The position numbers are program-made. From Myxococcota bacterium (GTDB lineage Bacteria > Myxococcota_A > UBA796 > CAJQPC01), in assembly GCA_036012755.1 (NCBI GenBank), contig DASCPX010000211.1, forward strand, positions 1 to 64,000: a DNA stretch of 64,000 bases, read 5' to 3'. This document shows, piece by piece, positions 18,001 through 24,000 of this stretch. The stretch's first letter is position 1. Each line of letters starts with the position of its first letter.

Positions 18001-21000
18001 TACGGGATCGAGCGCTCTGTCGCCGGTCTGCGCGTCGGAGCGTGGCATCCCGCCGCGGCCCTCGCCCGGTTCTGCGAGCGGGAGTCCCTCGGCGGCCTGG
18101 AGGCCCTCGCAGGCTGGCCGGGCACGGTCGGGGAGGCTCTGCGCCAGGGCCGGGTGTCGGGCTGTGCGCGGGTCCTGAAGGGCGTCCGTCTCGGCGACGT
18201 CGAGGTGGTCCTCGACAGCCACGTCATCATCTCGGTCGAGCTCGAGGTGAGGCCAGAGATCTCAGCTGTCATCGAAGCCCAGGGACTCCGGAACATCGAA
18301 CAGCGCCGGGGGGTCGGTCCAGGCCCGGGCCGTGTCTTCGAGGAACCCGGCCGCCAAAGCGCCGCGGAGCTGCTTGCGGACGCCGGCCTGTGCGGGGTGC
18401 GGCTGCGCAAGGCCCGGCTCGGCGTCAGAGAGCCGAACTGCATCCAGAACCTCGGCGGCGCGAGCGCAGAGGACGTGTTGCTCCTGGTCAAGATGGCGCA
18501 GGACCGCGTGAAGGCCCACTCGGGCATCGCGCTGTCAGCCGTCCATCGACCCCGCGGGCAGCGGCGGCGGACCCATGGATAGAGCGAGCACCCGCGTGGG
18601 CGTCCTGATGGGTGGCATGTCCCAGGAGCGAGCCGTGAGCCTCAAGAGCGGCGGGGCCGTCCTCGCAGCCCTGAGGCAGCGGGGCTGGAACACCGTCGCC
18701 ATCGATGTCGGCCCGGACCTCCCCGAGAGGCTCCGGGCGGAGCACGTGGACGTCGCGTGGATCGCGCTCCATGGACAGTTCGGCGAGGACGGCTGCGTCC
18801 AGGGTCTGCTGGAGATCATGCGCATCCCGTACACGGGCAGCAGCGCGCAGGCCTCTGCCGTGGCCATGGACAAGATCCGCACCAAGCGGCTGCTCGCCGA
18901 CACTGGCATCCCGATGCCGGGAGACCGAATCTGGCGTCGGGGGGATGAGATCCCGCCGGTCCGGCTCCCGGTGGTGGCCAAGTTCCCGAGCGGGGGGTCC
19001 ACCCTGGGACTGGCCATCTGCAGGGAGAGAGGCGAGCTGGAGAAGGCGCTGGTCGAGCTCAGCGGACTGGCCAGCGAGGTGCTGCTCGAGGACTTCGTCG
19101 CCGGCGAGGAGATCACCGTCGCCGTCCTCGACGGTGTGGCGCTGCCGGTCGTGGGTATCGTCCCGGAGAGCGGCTTCTTCGACTACGAAGCCAAGTACAC
19201 AGAGGGGCAGACCCGCTACGAGGTGCCGGCGACGCGCGTGTCCCAGGAGGTCCAGCTCCTCGCTCAGGAGCACGCCGCGACCGCCTACATGGTCGTGGGT
19301 CTGTCCGGGATTGCCCGCGCCGACTTCCTCGTCGATGGCGCCGGCGTTCCCTGGTTCCTGGAGATCAACACCATCCCGGGCATGACCGCCACCTCGCTCT
19401 CTCCGATGGCCGCGAAGGCCCTCGGCGTCTCCTTCGAGGAGCTCGTGGAGAGGCTGCTGCTCTCCGCTGTCGTCCACCTCGAACGATACGATCAGATCCT
19501 TGATTAGTATTTACTTGTCAAGACCTGTGTCGCGTTGGTACAAAGACCAGCAGCAGCAGCAGCAGCAGACTCAGAGCAGCGGATGTCAATTGTCGTGGAC
19601 CGGCCCAGGGGCCTTCGTTCGAGGTTTCGGAACCTTGCACGCGCAGGTTTCGTCACCGCAGCGCTCACCAGCGCCGGGTGCCTCCTGATGAGCCTCTACG
19701 ACGACGTCGCCAGGGTCGGATCCGTGCAAGTCCACGGCAACGTCGAGGCCGCTGACGTCGGACTGCGCCACCTCGCTGGCGTGCAGGTCGGCGAGAGCTT
19801 GATGTTCCTGGATCTCGGGGACGTCGTCGACCGCGTGGTGGCCCATCCCTGGGTCGCCGAGGCCACGGTCTATCGGGCCTGGCCCGACCAGATCGTCATC
19901 GAGGTGAAGGAGCACGACGACGTCCTGCTGCTGGCACACCGCGGGCTGTACCGGGTCAACAGCTCGGGGGAGCTCTTTGTCCGAGCCCGCAGCGGCGACC
20001 TCGACCGCCCGGTGCTCACGGGGCTCTCCCCGGTGCTCGTCGACCAACACCCCGGCGTCGCTCGCCGCATCGTGCGAGAGGCCGTCGCTGTCGTCGGGGC
20101 CGTGCGCGACTGCTCGGTGTTGTCAGAGGACGAGCTCTCAGAGGTCCACTTCGACCCGGCCCTCGGGTTCACCCTTCGCCTTCGCAACAACAGCGCCATC
20201 CACCTGGGCTTCCAGCCCCCGCACGAGCCCCTCGCTCGGCTGGAGCAGATGGTCGGCGCCGGCCTCGACCTGGCGGTGCCGCACGAGATCGACCTCGATC
20301 TCGCAGGGCTCGCCGTCGCAACCCCCCTCGATCCCGCCAGCGCCTCCTAGGGCGCCCCCCCCCCCCAACTCTCCTCACTCCTCCCCCCCGGAGCCCTCCA
20401 TGACCATCGAACTCGTCGAGAACGAGCTGACCTACGGCGCCAAGATCAAGGTGATCGGCGTTGGCGGCGGCGGAAACAACGCCATCAACACCATGATCGC
20501 CGGCGGCCTGACCGGCGTCGAGTTCATCGCGGTCAACACCGACGCCCAGGACCTGCGTCGCTCCCTTGCCACGCGGCGCTTCCAGATGGGTGCGCAGCTG
20601 ACCAAGGGGCTGGGTGCAGGCGCCAACCCCGAGGTCGGTCGCGAGTCCGCCCTCGAGGACAAGGAGCGACTGAGCGAGCTCGTCGTCGGCGCGGACATGG
20701 TCTTTGTCACCGCCGGCATGGGCGGTGGCACCGGCACGGGCTCCGCCCCCATCATCGCCCAGCTGGCCAAGGAGGCTGGCGCCCTGACCGTCGCGGTCGT
20801 GACGCGCCCCTTCTGGTTCGAGGGCAAGAAGCGTCGCCGCCAGGCCGAGGAGGGCGTCGAGACCCTCAAGAGCGTGGTCGACACCCTCATCACCATCCCC
20901 AACCAGCGCCTCATCTCGATGGCGAACGAGCGCACCACCATGAAGGAGGCCTTCAACATGGCCGACCAGGTGCTGCTCCAGGCCGTCAAGGGTGTGTCCG

Positions 21001-24000
21001 ATCTGATCAACTTCGAGGGCATCGTGAACGTCGACTTCGCCGACGTGCGCACGACGATGTCGAACAAGGGCGTGGCGCTCATGGGTGTGGGCAGCGCGTC
21101 GGGTGAGCACAAGACCGTCGACGCCGCTCAGCGCGCCATCTCGTCCCCCTTGCTCGATGACGTCAGCATCGCAGGTGCCACCAGCGTGCTGATGAACATC
21201 ACCGGCAACAGCAACCTCACGATGTACGAGATCAACGAGGCCAGCACCCTGATCCAGGAGGAGTGCCACGAGGACGTGAACCTCATCTGGGGTTGGGTCA
21301 TCGACGAGGACATGGAGGACGAGGCCCGCGTGACGGTCATCGCGACCGGATTCGAGGAGGCCCGGCACGCCGCGCTGCCGAGCGCCGAGCGCCGTGTCGC
21401 CGTGCAGGTCGCGGGCAACCGCCCCGGTCGTCGCGTCCAGAGCCGCGGGCTGCACTCGGGCTTCGACCTCGGCGACGAGGACTACGACATCCCGACCTTC
21501 TACCGCAACGCCGACTGACGGAGCGCGCCCCCTGCTGGCACGGCTCTTGCGCTGTGCCGGGATTGTGTCGGGAGGGGGCTTCCCGTAGATAGGGGCCGCC
21601 ACATCGGAGGCTCCAATGTTCGCCGCGCTCACACTCCTCAGCACCGCCGCCCTCGCCGAGAGCCTCTCTGACGCTGAGACCAGCTACTCCGGCGCGACCA
21701 TCCTGGTCGGCAACGAGGACGCCTGGTTCGAGACGTACACCCCGGGTCCCATGACTCGCGACGGCAAGTACGAGCAGACCGAGTACGCCTTCTGGAGCGG
21801 CAACACGCTCTATGTCGGCTCTGAGGACGAGCACGGGAACCAGGTCGACGCCATCGTCGAGTTCTTCTGGTTCGAGTCCTCCATCGACCGCGGCAGCGAC
21901 TTCTACGTCGCCGTCATCAAGGCTCGCACGACGCCGAACGTCGAGGACGAGTGGTACTTGATGAAGGACGACGAGAAGCCGGTCTTGTACGTCGACGCCT
22001 ACACGGACATCAGCCGCGAGACCAACGCCTTCCGGTGGGACTGGTCGCTGCCCTTCACCAACTACGGCGTGGACAGCTACGGCCAGGTCACGATGAAGTC
22101 GTCCTATGGCATCGGCGGCAACGCCGAGGGCTCGGCCATGTACTCCGAGACCTACGAAGAGGACGGCACGAAGGCCACCGGGACGGTGCAGGCCAAGGGC
22201 TACGTGAACTCCGAGTACAGCGTCAACACCAACTACAGCGTCGAGCTCTGGTCCTGGTACACCTGGGTCGACGGCTCGCCCGGCGAGATGGAGTGGAAGA
22301 TCACCCTCGACAACCGGACGAAGCTCGAGGAGAACGCCTACCACGAGTACTTCCTCGCGATGCAGGCATCCGAGGGCGAGGAGTTCATCATCGACGAGTT
22401 CACCATCGGCGCCACCACCGACCAGTGGTGGTGGGGCAAGTGGAACGAGAACAGCGTCACCGTCCACGGCCTCCACCTCTACCGTCCCGAGTACGCCGTC
22501 GAAGAGGAAGAAGAGGAGGAGGAGTTCGAGGACACCGGCCTCGAGTTCGACACGGGTGACGACGGCGCAGATGACGACGACGACGACAACCACGACGTCT
22601 ACGGCGACCCCAACCCCGACGGCGCCATCCCCCTGTGGGACCAGCCGGCAGAGGATGGCAAGGGCTGCAGCACGCTGCCCGCGAGCTACGGGCTGTTGAC
22701 CGCGCTTCTCGGCGTGCTCATGTTGTCGAGGCGCGAGGACTGAAATCCTCGTCTACACCGAGTTTTCAGACGCCGTCTTCTGTCAGCCGCGTGGTGGGTG
22801 CTGACACAAGGCGGCGTCGCTTTTGTCTGGGTCAGAGCGCGATGGCGTCGCGGCGTGCCTGCAGGAGCTCGGTCGTCGAGTTGTAGAGCCTGTACTTCGA
22901 TGCGACCACGAGGCCCTGGTCGTAGCTCGTGTAGGCCTTCTGGAGCAGCACGAGGGTCTGCTCGTCGAGGAGCTCGTAGTAGAGCTCCAGCGCCTCTCCT
23001 TCGAGCTCGGCCGGCGGCGTGTCGTGCATGTCGTCGTAGAGTTCGATGTAGGCATCGCCCAGCACGAGGAGGGACCGGATCATCCACTCGGGCTCCTCGG
23101 TCTCGATGACCTCGATGATGTGGGCCTCTGCGGTCTGGATGGCTGCGGCCCGACGAGCGAGGTTCTTCTCGGGCTTTCGCTTGTCCAGCCTGAGGTCCTC
23201 GACCGCCTCGAGCTCCATGGTGGCCAGGTGGTAGGCGGTCCGAGCCCGGAGCCAGCGCATCTCGTCGGTGTCCTCCGTCGCCCGCATCGCGCGGTCCAGC
23301 ATCTCCTCACCGCGCCGGCGGTTGCCTGCCCGTTGCTCGGCGACGCCCTGCGCCATCTCGATGCTGATCCAGTCGACGCGTTCGTAGTCGACCAGCCGCG
23401 GGATCTTCCGGTACTCGCGCACGGACTCCTTCCAGCGGCCGAGCTCGTCCAGGCAGAGCGCTCGGCGGTAGCGGGCGTCGACGGTCCTCGCGCCCTCGGT
23501 CTCCAGGGCCTCTGTGTAGGCGGAGACCGCGAGGTCGTGCTCGCCCTGGAGCTCGTGAACGATGCCCAGCTGGTAGTGGATCTCCTGAGGATCGGCCCCG
23601 ACCTCCAGGAGCCAGCCGAGGCGATGGACCGCCCCCTCGAAGTCCCCGTCCTGCCGTCGGGCGAGGGCCTCGTCGTAGACCAGCGGGTGGTCCTGGCGGT
23701 CGAAGACCTCCGCCAGGGCGGGTGGAGGCCTCTCCGGCGCGTAGGCCGGGATCTCGTGCAGGCAGGCGGTCAGGATCAGGAGCATGTCTGTGTAGACGGT
23801 CCCTCCGCCCGAGAGTTCCAGTCGAACTCCCGGAGGAGGGCACCACCTCAGGGCCGTGTGTAGCGGTGCAAGTCCTCCTCTCACCAGAGAGGGGACGGTC
23901 TCGCCGCTTCAGGCTCCCTTTCCTTGAAGGTCTGCACACCACGACGAGGGTTCGTTCCCGTAGGAAACAATCACGGAGGAACTGCAAATACCGCTGGTTC

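What a model noticed while it worked through the whole genome (the two positions that open the first line are those of the whole stretch)
19583..21518. An entire bacterial order divides with FtsZ but has no FtsA, SepF or ZipA: dcw cluster runs ftsQ-ftsZ
In an otherwise intact dcw cluster (mraZ to ddl) ftsQ is followed after 49 bp by ftsZ, and no FtsA, SepF or ZipA is found anywhere in the genome. The loss is order-wide in UBA796 while the rest of the phylum keeps FtsA. FtsZ still carries the conserved anchor-binding C-terminal peptide (DYDIPTF), so this Gram-negative lineage must tether the Z-ring with an unknown protein.
Evidence so far: Gene order: calls 156, 178. FtsA-specific domain PF02491: 0 of 154 order genomes, 0 of 61 high-quality ones, while the control rings in 8 of 14 reference genomes. 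TIGR01174 ftsA: 0 of 31 order genomes against 37 of 37 non-order genomes of the phylum, including 3 of the same class. FtsZ in 29 of the same 31. ftsQ directly upstream of ftsZ in 16 of 16 loci fetched, and the DYDIPT tail in all 15 complete ones. SepF 0 of 31; ZipA none in this genome. The best ftsA-profile hits here are the two MreBs and PilM, far under the cut-off. Paper searches showed no report for this order.
(Added by a program. Inside this text positions count along the whole contig: contig position 1 is position 1 of the stretch shown here. "Call 12" and the like, gene names such as g00115 and contig names such as C1 are that model's own, and its searches are not shown. The text may have been shortened before it was handed on; [...] marks where a part breaks off. 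The agent that wrote the report below was given it as the finding of a first reader that could run no searches.)

Follow-up and report, generated by a model that had tools for sequence, protein, structure and literature searches.

The report
Bacterial order dividing without FtsA anchor
A whole order of uncultured Gram-negative bacteria keeps the FtsZ division ring but has lost FtsA and the other known proteins that fasten that ring to the membrane, so it must use a tether not yet identified.

Summary
Confirmed. ftsQ is followed after 49 bp by ftsZ. FtsA is over cut-off in 0 of 154 order genomes against 27 of 28 sister-order genomes; the one apparent exception is a chimeric contig. SepF is absent (0 of 110). 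ZipA-like hits are sporadic (2 of 86). FtsEX is missing from the largest family (0 of 27), which holds the two near-closed genomes. The rest of the divisome is present. The cluster is not fully intact: murG has moved out. New here: the loss comes with other changes. The FtsZ tail is about 40 residues shorter; minCDE is present (MinC in 133 of 154 against 0 of 28 sisters); MreC is missing from 81 of 86 although two MreBs remain; and a DUF2752 membrane gene is coupled to zapA (72 of 86 against 0 of 24). MinC binds the same FtsZ peptide in E. coli, so the conserved tail does not by itself prove an unknown anchor. The tail does persist, or is remodelled, in genera lacking MinC. The anchor is not identified; MinD-MinC is the best named candidate. 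No report was found in nine paper searches.

The parts
5870..6457 (+). mraZ (true start probably downstream of the listed TTG)
   Evidence: PF02381, 75 bits
6438..7319 (+). mraW/rsmH
   Evidence: PF01795; start from own gene caller
7361..7702 (+). ftsL (by position, single membrane segment plus coiled coil)
   Evidence: between mraW and ftsI; only a weak DivIC match, E 0.09; like ORFs at this place in order and sister genomes
7699..9663 (+). ftsI (PBP3), the only free-standing class B PBP found in the genome
10138..15234 (+). murE, murF, mraY, murD
   Evidence: Mur ligase and Glycos_transf_4 domains; boundaries
15231..16367 (+). ftsW, abutting murC with no murG between
   Evidence: PF01098, 328 bits; murG at C246:32345-33421
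16367..19507 (+). murC, murB, ddl
19583..20350 (+). ftsQ, short cytoplasmic N-terminus with no order-wide extension
   Evidence: PF08478 and PF03799; N-termini compared
20351..20399 (+). 49-bp spacer where ftsA lies in sister orders; holds a poly-C run
   Evidence: sister loci carry ftsA directly before ftsZ
20400..21518 (+). ftsZ, 372 aa, GTPase signature intact, single copy in this genome
21354..21515 (+). FtsZ tail after the core (residues 319-372, 54 aa): short linker with a conserved P-x(1-2)-E-x-R segment and an SG segment
21480..21515 (+). [quoted passage not shown]
   Evidence: Y52, D53, P55 and F57 invariant in 39 aligned tails
36166..36960 (+). FtsN-like bitopic SPOR-domain protein (the FtsN label is inferred)
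   Evidence: PF05036, 66 bits

Best explanation
Shown: ftsA was deleted from the dcw cluster, most simply once in the ancestor of the order, and is not elsewhere in the genomes. FtsZ, FtsQ/L/B, FtsW/I, FtsK, ZapA and an FtsN-like protein remain, so these cells most likely still divide by an FtsZ ring. Also shown: the order differs from its sister orders by a shorter FtsZ tail, a minCDE operon, a membrane gene coupled to zapA, relocation of murG and, in most members, loss of mreC and rodA. Inferred mechanism: the ring is tethered through its C-terminal peptide to a membrane-bound protein unrelated to FtsA, SepF or ZipA, as in other FtsA-less phyla that use their own anchor. MinCDE works as a conventional site-selection system in which MinD-bound MinC competes for the same peptide; FtsEX helps where present. 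Without FtsA, activation of FtsWI would have to run through the periplasmic FtsN-FtsQLB route (inference from E. coli models). The anchor gene itself was not identified.
For: FtsA 0 of 154 against 27 of 28; exhaustive local searches negative. SepF 0 of 110, ZipA_C over cut-off 2 of 86. FtsE over cut-off 0 of 27 in family f3 and FtsX undetected in G032 and G048, so FtsEX cannot be the general anchor. FtsK and FtsB 5 of 5, ZapA 80 of 86. The peptide stays canonical or nearly so in genus g31, where minC is truly gone from the minD-minE locus, and a remodelled IP/LP-x-F peptide is conserved in all four g63 genomes, none with a MinC hit; this implies another ligand. minC, minD and minE are all present, and the MinC N-domain meets the Pfam cut-off, as expected of a normal Min system.
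Against: No anchor gene was found; only candidate genes were surveyed, since no genome-wide comparison across the order was possible. Tail conservation tracks MinC (39 of 41 against 9 of 17), so the tail may be kept mainly as a MinC target and the tether may not use it. All genomes are metagenome assemblies; no cell has been seen dividing.
Confidence: 0.45

Rival explanations
1. MinD-MinC is itself the tether. Membrane-bound MinD (amphipathic C-terminal helix) holds MinC, whose C-domain binds the FtsZ peptide; a retuned N-domain no longer dismantles filaments, so an inhibitor became the anchor when FtsA was lost.
For: MinC over cut-off in 133 of 154 order genomes and 0 of 28 sisters, the mirror image of FtsA; 61 of 64 against 5 of 337 in a phylum sample. 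In E. coli MinC-C binds the same peptide as FtsA and ZipA, MinCD displaces FtsA, and unanchored FtsZ follows MinCDE waves in vitro (PMC6803595, passages). The first strand of the MinC N-domain is not conserved across the order, other N-domain segments are, and the N-domain is truncated in near-closed G032. Tail degeneration is enriched where MinC is missing.
Against: MinE is kept, which points to an oscillating inhibitor system. minC is truly lost in genera g31 and g63, which also lack FtsA. The five other Myxococcota with MinC all keep FtsA. MinC-C/MinD blocks division in E. coli.
Confidence: 0.2
2. Distributed tethering by ordinary divisome members: FtsEX where present, plus FtsK and FtsQLB/FtsWI, with ZapA bundling; there is no dedicated anchor.
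For: FtsE over cut-off in 58 of 58 genomes of five families; FtsK 5 of 5; FtsEX associates with FtsZ in E. coli (PMC10591338, passages).
Against: FtsEX is absent from family f3 (0 of 27) and from the one f2 genome tested, yet the tail is unchanged there. No conserved cytoplasmic extension on FtsW, FtsL, FtsI or FtsQ. FtsK N-termini were not compared.
Confidence: 0.12
3. An orphan MreB replaces FtsA: a second actin-like protein, the copy co-transcribed with a zinc-ribbon / membrane helix / PH-like protein, scaffolds FtsZ at the membrane.
For: Two or more MreB matches in about 126 of 154 genomes (hand count), although MreC is absent from 81 of 86 and RodA is over cut-off in 1 of 86. Conserved neighbourhoods for both copies. 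In sister family f12 the second copy lies next to ftsZ.
Against: The same MreB plus zinc-ribbon module exists in FtsA-bearing families f10-f12. Full-length GltG-like proteins are present, so a gliding-type machine could explain MreB retention (MreB's role in gliding is recalled). MreBs decay most in f3 and g63, and the tail does not in f3.
Confidence: 0.1
4. A tail-independent route: ZapA binds the FtsZ core and is held at the membrane by the DUF2752 protein translated in frame-coupling behind it.
For: Strong orthologue (>100 bits) in 72 of 86 order genomes, in all seven families, and 0 of 24 sisters (best 47 bits). It starts within -8 to +55 nt of the zapA stop, most often overlapping by 4 nt. 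In sisters zapA is followed by an rny-like gene.
Against: No such gene follows zapA in G005, G020, G021, G027, G028, G057, G062, G063 or G141 (for five of these under 300 nt of downstream DNA was held). The invariant residues are mostly the Cys/His/Gly loop shared by DUF2752 proteins, not a cytoplasmic surface. Adjacency may just follow loss of rny.
Confidence: 0.07
5. FtsZ binds the membrane directly through its shortened tail.
For: Tail shortened to a narrow range (54-62 aa against 90-109) with a conserved helix-like segment and FF/FY in the peptide.
Against: The segments have lower hydrophobic moment (0.37, 0.47) and negative mean hydrophobicity compared with the MinD and MreB membrane helices (0.56, 0.57). 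There is no transmembrane segment.
Confidence: 0.05
6. Artefact: a very divergent ftsA moved out of the cluster, as murG did, or is systematically unassembled.
For: murG did move; the genomes are MAGs; contigs of an independent study break at the poly-C spacer and none bridges it.
Against: 0 of 154, including a one-contig and a two-contig genome, while the same search finds 27 of 28 sisters at >290 bits. Every actin-fold hit in this genome is accounted for. The single ftsA fragment, in G055, is a chimera.
Confidence: 0.04

Closest known systems
Canonical Gracilicutes divisome (E. coli: FtsZ anchored by FtsA and ZipA)
   Same: dcw order mraZ to ddl-ftsQ-ftsZ; FtsZ with conserved C-terminal peptide; FtsQLB, FtsWI, FtsK, ZapA, MinCDE, FtsEX in most families
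   Different: No FtsA or ZipA; murG outside the cluster; FtsEX lost in one family. Pende 2021 (PMC8178401, passages) states that Gracilicutes other than Fusobacteria have FtsA only. In Table 2 of PMC10591338 ftsZ and ftsA are both kept or both lost in all 12 groups of reduced intracellular bacteria.
FtsA-less divisomes of Actinobacteria and Cyanobacteria (SepF-anchored)
   Same: FtsZ ring without FtsA; in cyanobacteria an ftsQ-ftsZ doublet occurs (PMC8871954, passages)
   Different: SepF is essential there and absent here (0 of 110, control rings in 7 of 14)
Chlamydiae and Planctomycetes (no ftsA, no ftsZ)
   Same: Diderm bacteria that lost ftsA from the dcw cluster
   Different: They lost FtsZ as well; here FtsZ is kept and strongly conserved
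Myxococcus xanthus PomXYZ system
   Same: Same phylum; positions FtsZ by direct binding (PMC10307791, passages)
   Different: Nucleoid-bound, not a membrane anchor; Pyxidicoccus and Polyangium keep FtsA; Pom genes were not tested in the order, which has minCDE
E. coli MinCDE
   Same: minC-minD-minE operon; MinC with RSG motif in its C-domain; MinD with Walker A and C-terminal amphipathic helix
   Different: Occurs in a lineage without FtsA or ZipA for MinC to displace; first strand of the N-domain not conserved; minDE kept without minC in two genera

Membership tests
FtsA-anchored divisome | ftsA gene, usually between ftsQ and ftsZ | tested here: not met
FtsA-anchored divisome | FtsZ with GTPase signature and conserved C-terminal peptide | tested here: met
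FtsA-anchored divisome | FtsQLB, FtsWI, FtsK present | tested here: met
   (FtsL by position and shape; FtsB and FtsK in 5 of 5 genomes tested)
SepF-anchored divisome | SepF (PF04472) | tested here: not met
   0 of 110
ZipA-anchored divisome | conserved ZipA orthologue | tested here: not met
   2 of 86 over cut-off, in different families and unrelated contexts; none in this genome
FtsEX as anchor | FtsE and FtsX throughout the order | tested here: not met
   58 of 58 in five families, 0 of 27 in f3, 0 of 1 in f2
MinCDE system | minC (N and C domains), minD, minE in one operon | tested here: met
MinCDE system | MinC inhibits FtsZ polymers; MinDE oscillate | not testable with these tools
   needs biochemistry or imaging
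Elongasome (MreBCD-PBP2-RodA) | mreC and rodA | tested here: not met
   MreC 5 of 86, RodA over cut-off 1 of 86; none of MreC, MreD, PBP2 or RodA in this genome; kept at the ancestral locus in a few f3 genomes
RodZ-like MreB partner | HTH cytoplasmic domain | tested here: not met
   the gene before MreB-B has a zinc ribbon, one helix and a PH-like domain (best fold E 1.5e-3); RodZ elsewhere in the genome was not searched
PomXYZ positioning | pomX, pomY, pomZ | not tested

The most novel reading that the evidence does not exclude
In this order the MinD-MinC complex, known only as an inhibitor that strips FtsZ from FtsA, has become the membrane anchor of the Z ring: minCDE was gained and ftsA lost on the same branch, and the FtsZ tail shortened to fit.
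Probability: 0.2. Interest if true: 0.95.

Novelty: new variant of a known kind. Interest (0 to 1): 0.78.

Why it matters
FtsA is treated as the constant partner of FtsZ in Gram-negative bacteria of this half of the tree; even stripped-down endosymbionts keep both or lose both. A free-living order of 154 species clusters with large genomes and a full peptidoglycan divisome, but no FtsA, SepF or ZipA (and no FtsEX in one family), shows that the tether and the FtsA route of activating septal synthesis are replaceable. It gives a short, testable list: FtsZ tail against MinC/MinD, MreB-A, MreB-B, ZapA-DUF2752 and FtsK, all of which can be expressed in E. coli or reconstituted on bilayers. The added loss of mreC and rodA with two MreBs retained raises a second question, about cell shape and growth.

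Tried and rejected
Apparent ftsA in order genome G055 (87 bits, directly before ftsZ): rejected as a chimeric contig. The N-half of that FtsZ is 48% identical to the same-genus FtsZ and the C-half 93%, and the genuine ftsQ plus ftsZ 5' end lies on another contig that stops at the junction motif. A membrane-anchored protein between smc and zapA looked ZipA-like but is FtsY. ZipA_C hits in G082 and G119 are sporadic. No conserved extensions on FtsQ, FtsL, FtsI or FtsW. Complex prediction of the FtsZ tail with two MinC C-domains, two MinD and ATP: no answer, score 0.00 in two runs, controls not folded; this is neither support nor evidence against. MreB-tail and ZapA-DUF2752 complexes were not predicted (one job only). 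Sequencing runs: no RNA holder listed. Contigs of 4 runs cover both sides of the spacer, but no listed piece bridges the poly-C run, so they give no independent bridge. A homologue search with MinD returned only close relatives and no donor, so gain of minCDE versus loss in the sisters is not settled by a tree. The MreB tree was the quick method with long branches and does not place the root or join the order's B copies firmly to the sisters'. Promoter and terminator scan of 19400-21700: none. Earlier scan notes were not available. Paper searches listed no report on FtsA loss in this order or on DUF2752. A broad dcw survey in a subscription journal (Megrian and colleagues 2022, recalled, not seen) and the supplementary tables of PMC8178401 (not opened) could bear on novelty.
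Full report
The observation. The window holds a dcw cluster on the + strand: mraZ, mraW, ftsL, ftsI, murE, murF, mraY, murD, ftsW, murC, murB, ddl, ftsQ (19583-20350) and ftsZ (20400-21518). The ftsQ-ftsZ spacer is 49 bp. FtsZ has its GTPase signature and ends in [12 protein letters not shown].

Is FtsA really absent? In this genome (96% complete) PF02491 has no match at E<=10 while the control rings in 9 of 14 reference genomes. The FtsA actin-domain model finds only two MreBs, PilM, a GspL/PilM-like protein, DnaK-like proteins and a BadF-like protein (these labels are my reading of the sequences). 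An HMM from 96 FtsAs, 27 of them from sister orders, run without filters over all six-frame ORFs tops at 58 bits on PilM; a 1C-only HMM and tblastn add nothing. Across the class, TIGR01174 is over cut-off in 0 of 154 order genomes and 27 of 28 others. The one miss also has no FtsW hit. FtsZ matches 142 of 154. ftsQ is directly upstream of ftsZ in 27 of 30 loci and in the one-contig and two-contig genomes G048 and G032. The only ftsA fragment in the order, in G055, is a misassembly: the FtsZ behind it is 48% identical to its congener's in the N-half and 93% in the C-half, and the true ftsQ-ftsZ start lies on another contig ending at the junction. Contigs from four public runs break at the poly-C spacer and do not bridge it, so the independent support comes from the other genomes, not from those runs.

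Other known anchors, in 86 order and 24 sister genomes at least 90% complete. SepF 0 of 110. ZipA_C over cut-off in 2 of 86, in unrelated contexts. FtsE is over cut-off in 58 of 58 genomes of five families but 0 of 27 in family f3 and 0 of 1 in f2, and FtsX is undetected in the two near-closed f3 genomes. FtsK and FtsB are in 5 of 5 genomes tested and ZapA in 80 of 86. FtsQ, FtsL, FtsI and FtsW show no conserved cytoplasmic extension. Family f3 therefore has none of FtsA, ZipA, SepF or FtsEX.

What else differs from the sisters. (a) The FtsZ tail after the core has a median of 56.5 aa (54-62, n=42; this set includes three named loci of unconfirmed order membership and the 3' half of the G055 chimera) against 96.5 (90-109, n=18 sisters), with Y[DE]IPTF in 40 of 42. 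(b) minCDE: MinC is over cut-off in 133 of 154 order genomes and 0 of 28 sisters, and in 61 of 64 against 5 of 337 in a phylum sample; those five keep FtsA. The operon is complete in this genome at C91:25556-27478. (c) Elongasome: MreC 5 of 86 against 24 of 24, RodA over cut-off 1 of 86 against 22 of 24. A few f3 genomes keep mreC, pbp2 and rodA at the ancestral locus, so this loss is less general than that of FtsA; a divergent SEDS-transpeptidase fusion remains in this genome. About 126 of 154 genomes have two or more MreBs (hand count), one at the old mre locus and one behind a zinc-ribbon membrane protein with a PH-like domain; that module is also in FtsA-bearing sisters. (d) A DUF2752 membrane gene follows zapA, usually overlapping its stop, in 72 of 86 against 0 of 24, but no such gene follows zapA in nine genomes examined.

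How it most likely works. The retained divisome and the Min system, whose target is FtsZ, make FtsZ-ring division very likely (inference). A ring needs a tether. That step is weaker than it looked, because MinC-C binds the same peptide and MinCD displaces FtsA in E. coli (PMC6803595, passages), and the tail is canonical in 39 of 41 genomes with MinC against 9 of 17 without a hit (not independent, many of the latter incomplete). But minC is truly absent from the minD-minE locus in genera g31 and g63, and there the peptide is kept (g31) or remodelled and conserved (g63), which implies another ligand. I put 0.45 on a lineage-specific membrane protein binding the tail with a conventional Min system beside it; 0.2 on MinD-MinC being the tether; 0.12 on distributed tethering by FtsEX, FtsK and others; 0.1 on an orphan MreB (GltG-like proteins offer another reason to keep MreB); 0.07 on ZapA-DUF2752; 0.05 on self-anchoring; and 0.04 on a hidden FtsA. 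The one complex prediction gave no answer and is not counted either way.

Comparison with what is known. Pende 2021 (PMC8178401, passages) reports that Gracilicutes other than Fusobacteria have FtsA only, and that most Actinobacteria and Cyanobacteria, which lack FtsA, need SepF. PMC8871954 (passages) lists loss of ftsA with ftsZ in Chlamydiae and Planctomycetes and loss of ftsA in cyanobacteria. Table 2 of PMC10591338 (passages) shows ftsZ and ftsA kept or lost together in all 12 groups of intracellular bacteria listed. PMC10307791 (passages) describes PomXYZ, which was not tested here. Nine searches (listings and abstract starts only) showed no report for this order; subscription surveys and supplements were not seen. 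The system works like an FtsZ divisome but fails membership of the FtsA-, SepF- and ZipA-anchored kinds.

Verdict. A real, order-wide and apparently unreported loss, with a set of co-occurring changes that narrows the search for the tether. New variant of a known kind; interest 0.78. The anchor remains unidentified, and every genome is a metagenome assembly.

Noticed in passing
G000 C91:25556-27478 (L399): Complete minC-minD-minE operon, nearly specific to this order within the phylum; minD and minE are kept without minC in genera g31 and g63; the MinC N-domain is truncated in G032.
   Followed up: yes
G000 C174:35208-36209 and C105:37233-38261: Two MreB paralogues with no mreC, mreD, pbp2 or rodA in the genome; the elongasome is missing from most of the order, which predicts non-rod growth.
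   Followed up: partly
G000 C105:36210-37232 (L003): A 132-aa protein of no known family and a zinc-ribbon / membrane helix / PH-like protein are co-oriented before MreB-B across the order; the second also occurs in sister families f10-f12.
   Followed up: partly
G000 C157:73852-74603 (L221): zapA overlaps an order-specific DUF2752 membrane gene, followed in G032 and G048 by an rRNA operon; sisters have an rny-like gene there. The nearest Atlas clusters are commonest in Planctomycetota.
   Followed up: partly
L066 (G055:C161) and L370 (G055:C40): Chimeric contig joining a foreign ftsA and ftsZ start to the order's ftsZ at the conserved GTPase motif.
   Followed up: yes
L264 (G078:C65): A canonical mreB-mreC-mreD-pbp2-rodA operon whose MreB groups with Polyangium and Bradymonadia: contamination or transfer.
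   Followed up: partly
L374-L381, L278, L432, L434, L440, L449: Second, divergent ftsZ copies in several order genomes, mostly without ftsQ beside them and with altered tails; in G078 two ftsZ genes are in tandem.
   Followed up: no
G000 C16:25893-28877: 994-aa protein with weak similarity to both FtsW/RodA and class B PBPs, apparently a SEDS-transpeptidase fusion.
   Followed up: no
G000 C157:72737-73810: FtsY carries an N-terminal membrane segment, also in G032.
   Followed up: no
G000 C37:4447-14731 (L281): Full-length GltG-like gene in a cluster resembling myxobacterial Glt/Nfs loci (resemblance recalled); matches also in G048 and G093.
   Followed up: no
window 617-2527: Tad/Flp pilus-type genes (PF13400 on 967-2166) upstream of the dcw cluster.
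   Followed up: no
window 21616-22743: 375-aa secreted-looking acidic protein right after ftsZ, with no Pfam match; not seen after ftsZ in the other order loci displayed.
   Followed up: no
L211 (G082:C70) and L212 (G119:C46): Isolated proteins with a ZipA C-terminal-like domain in two unrelated order genomes.
   Followed up: partly
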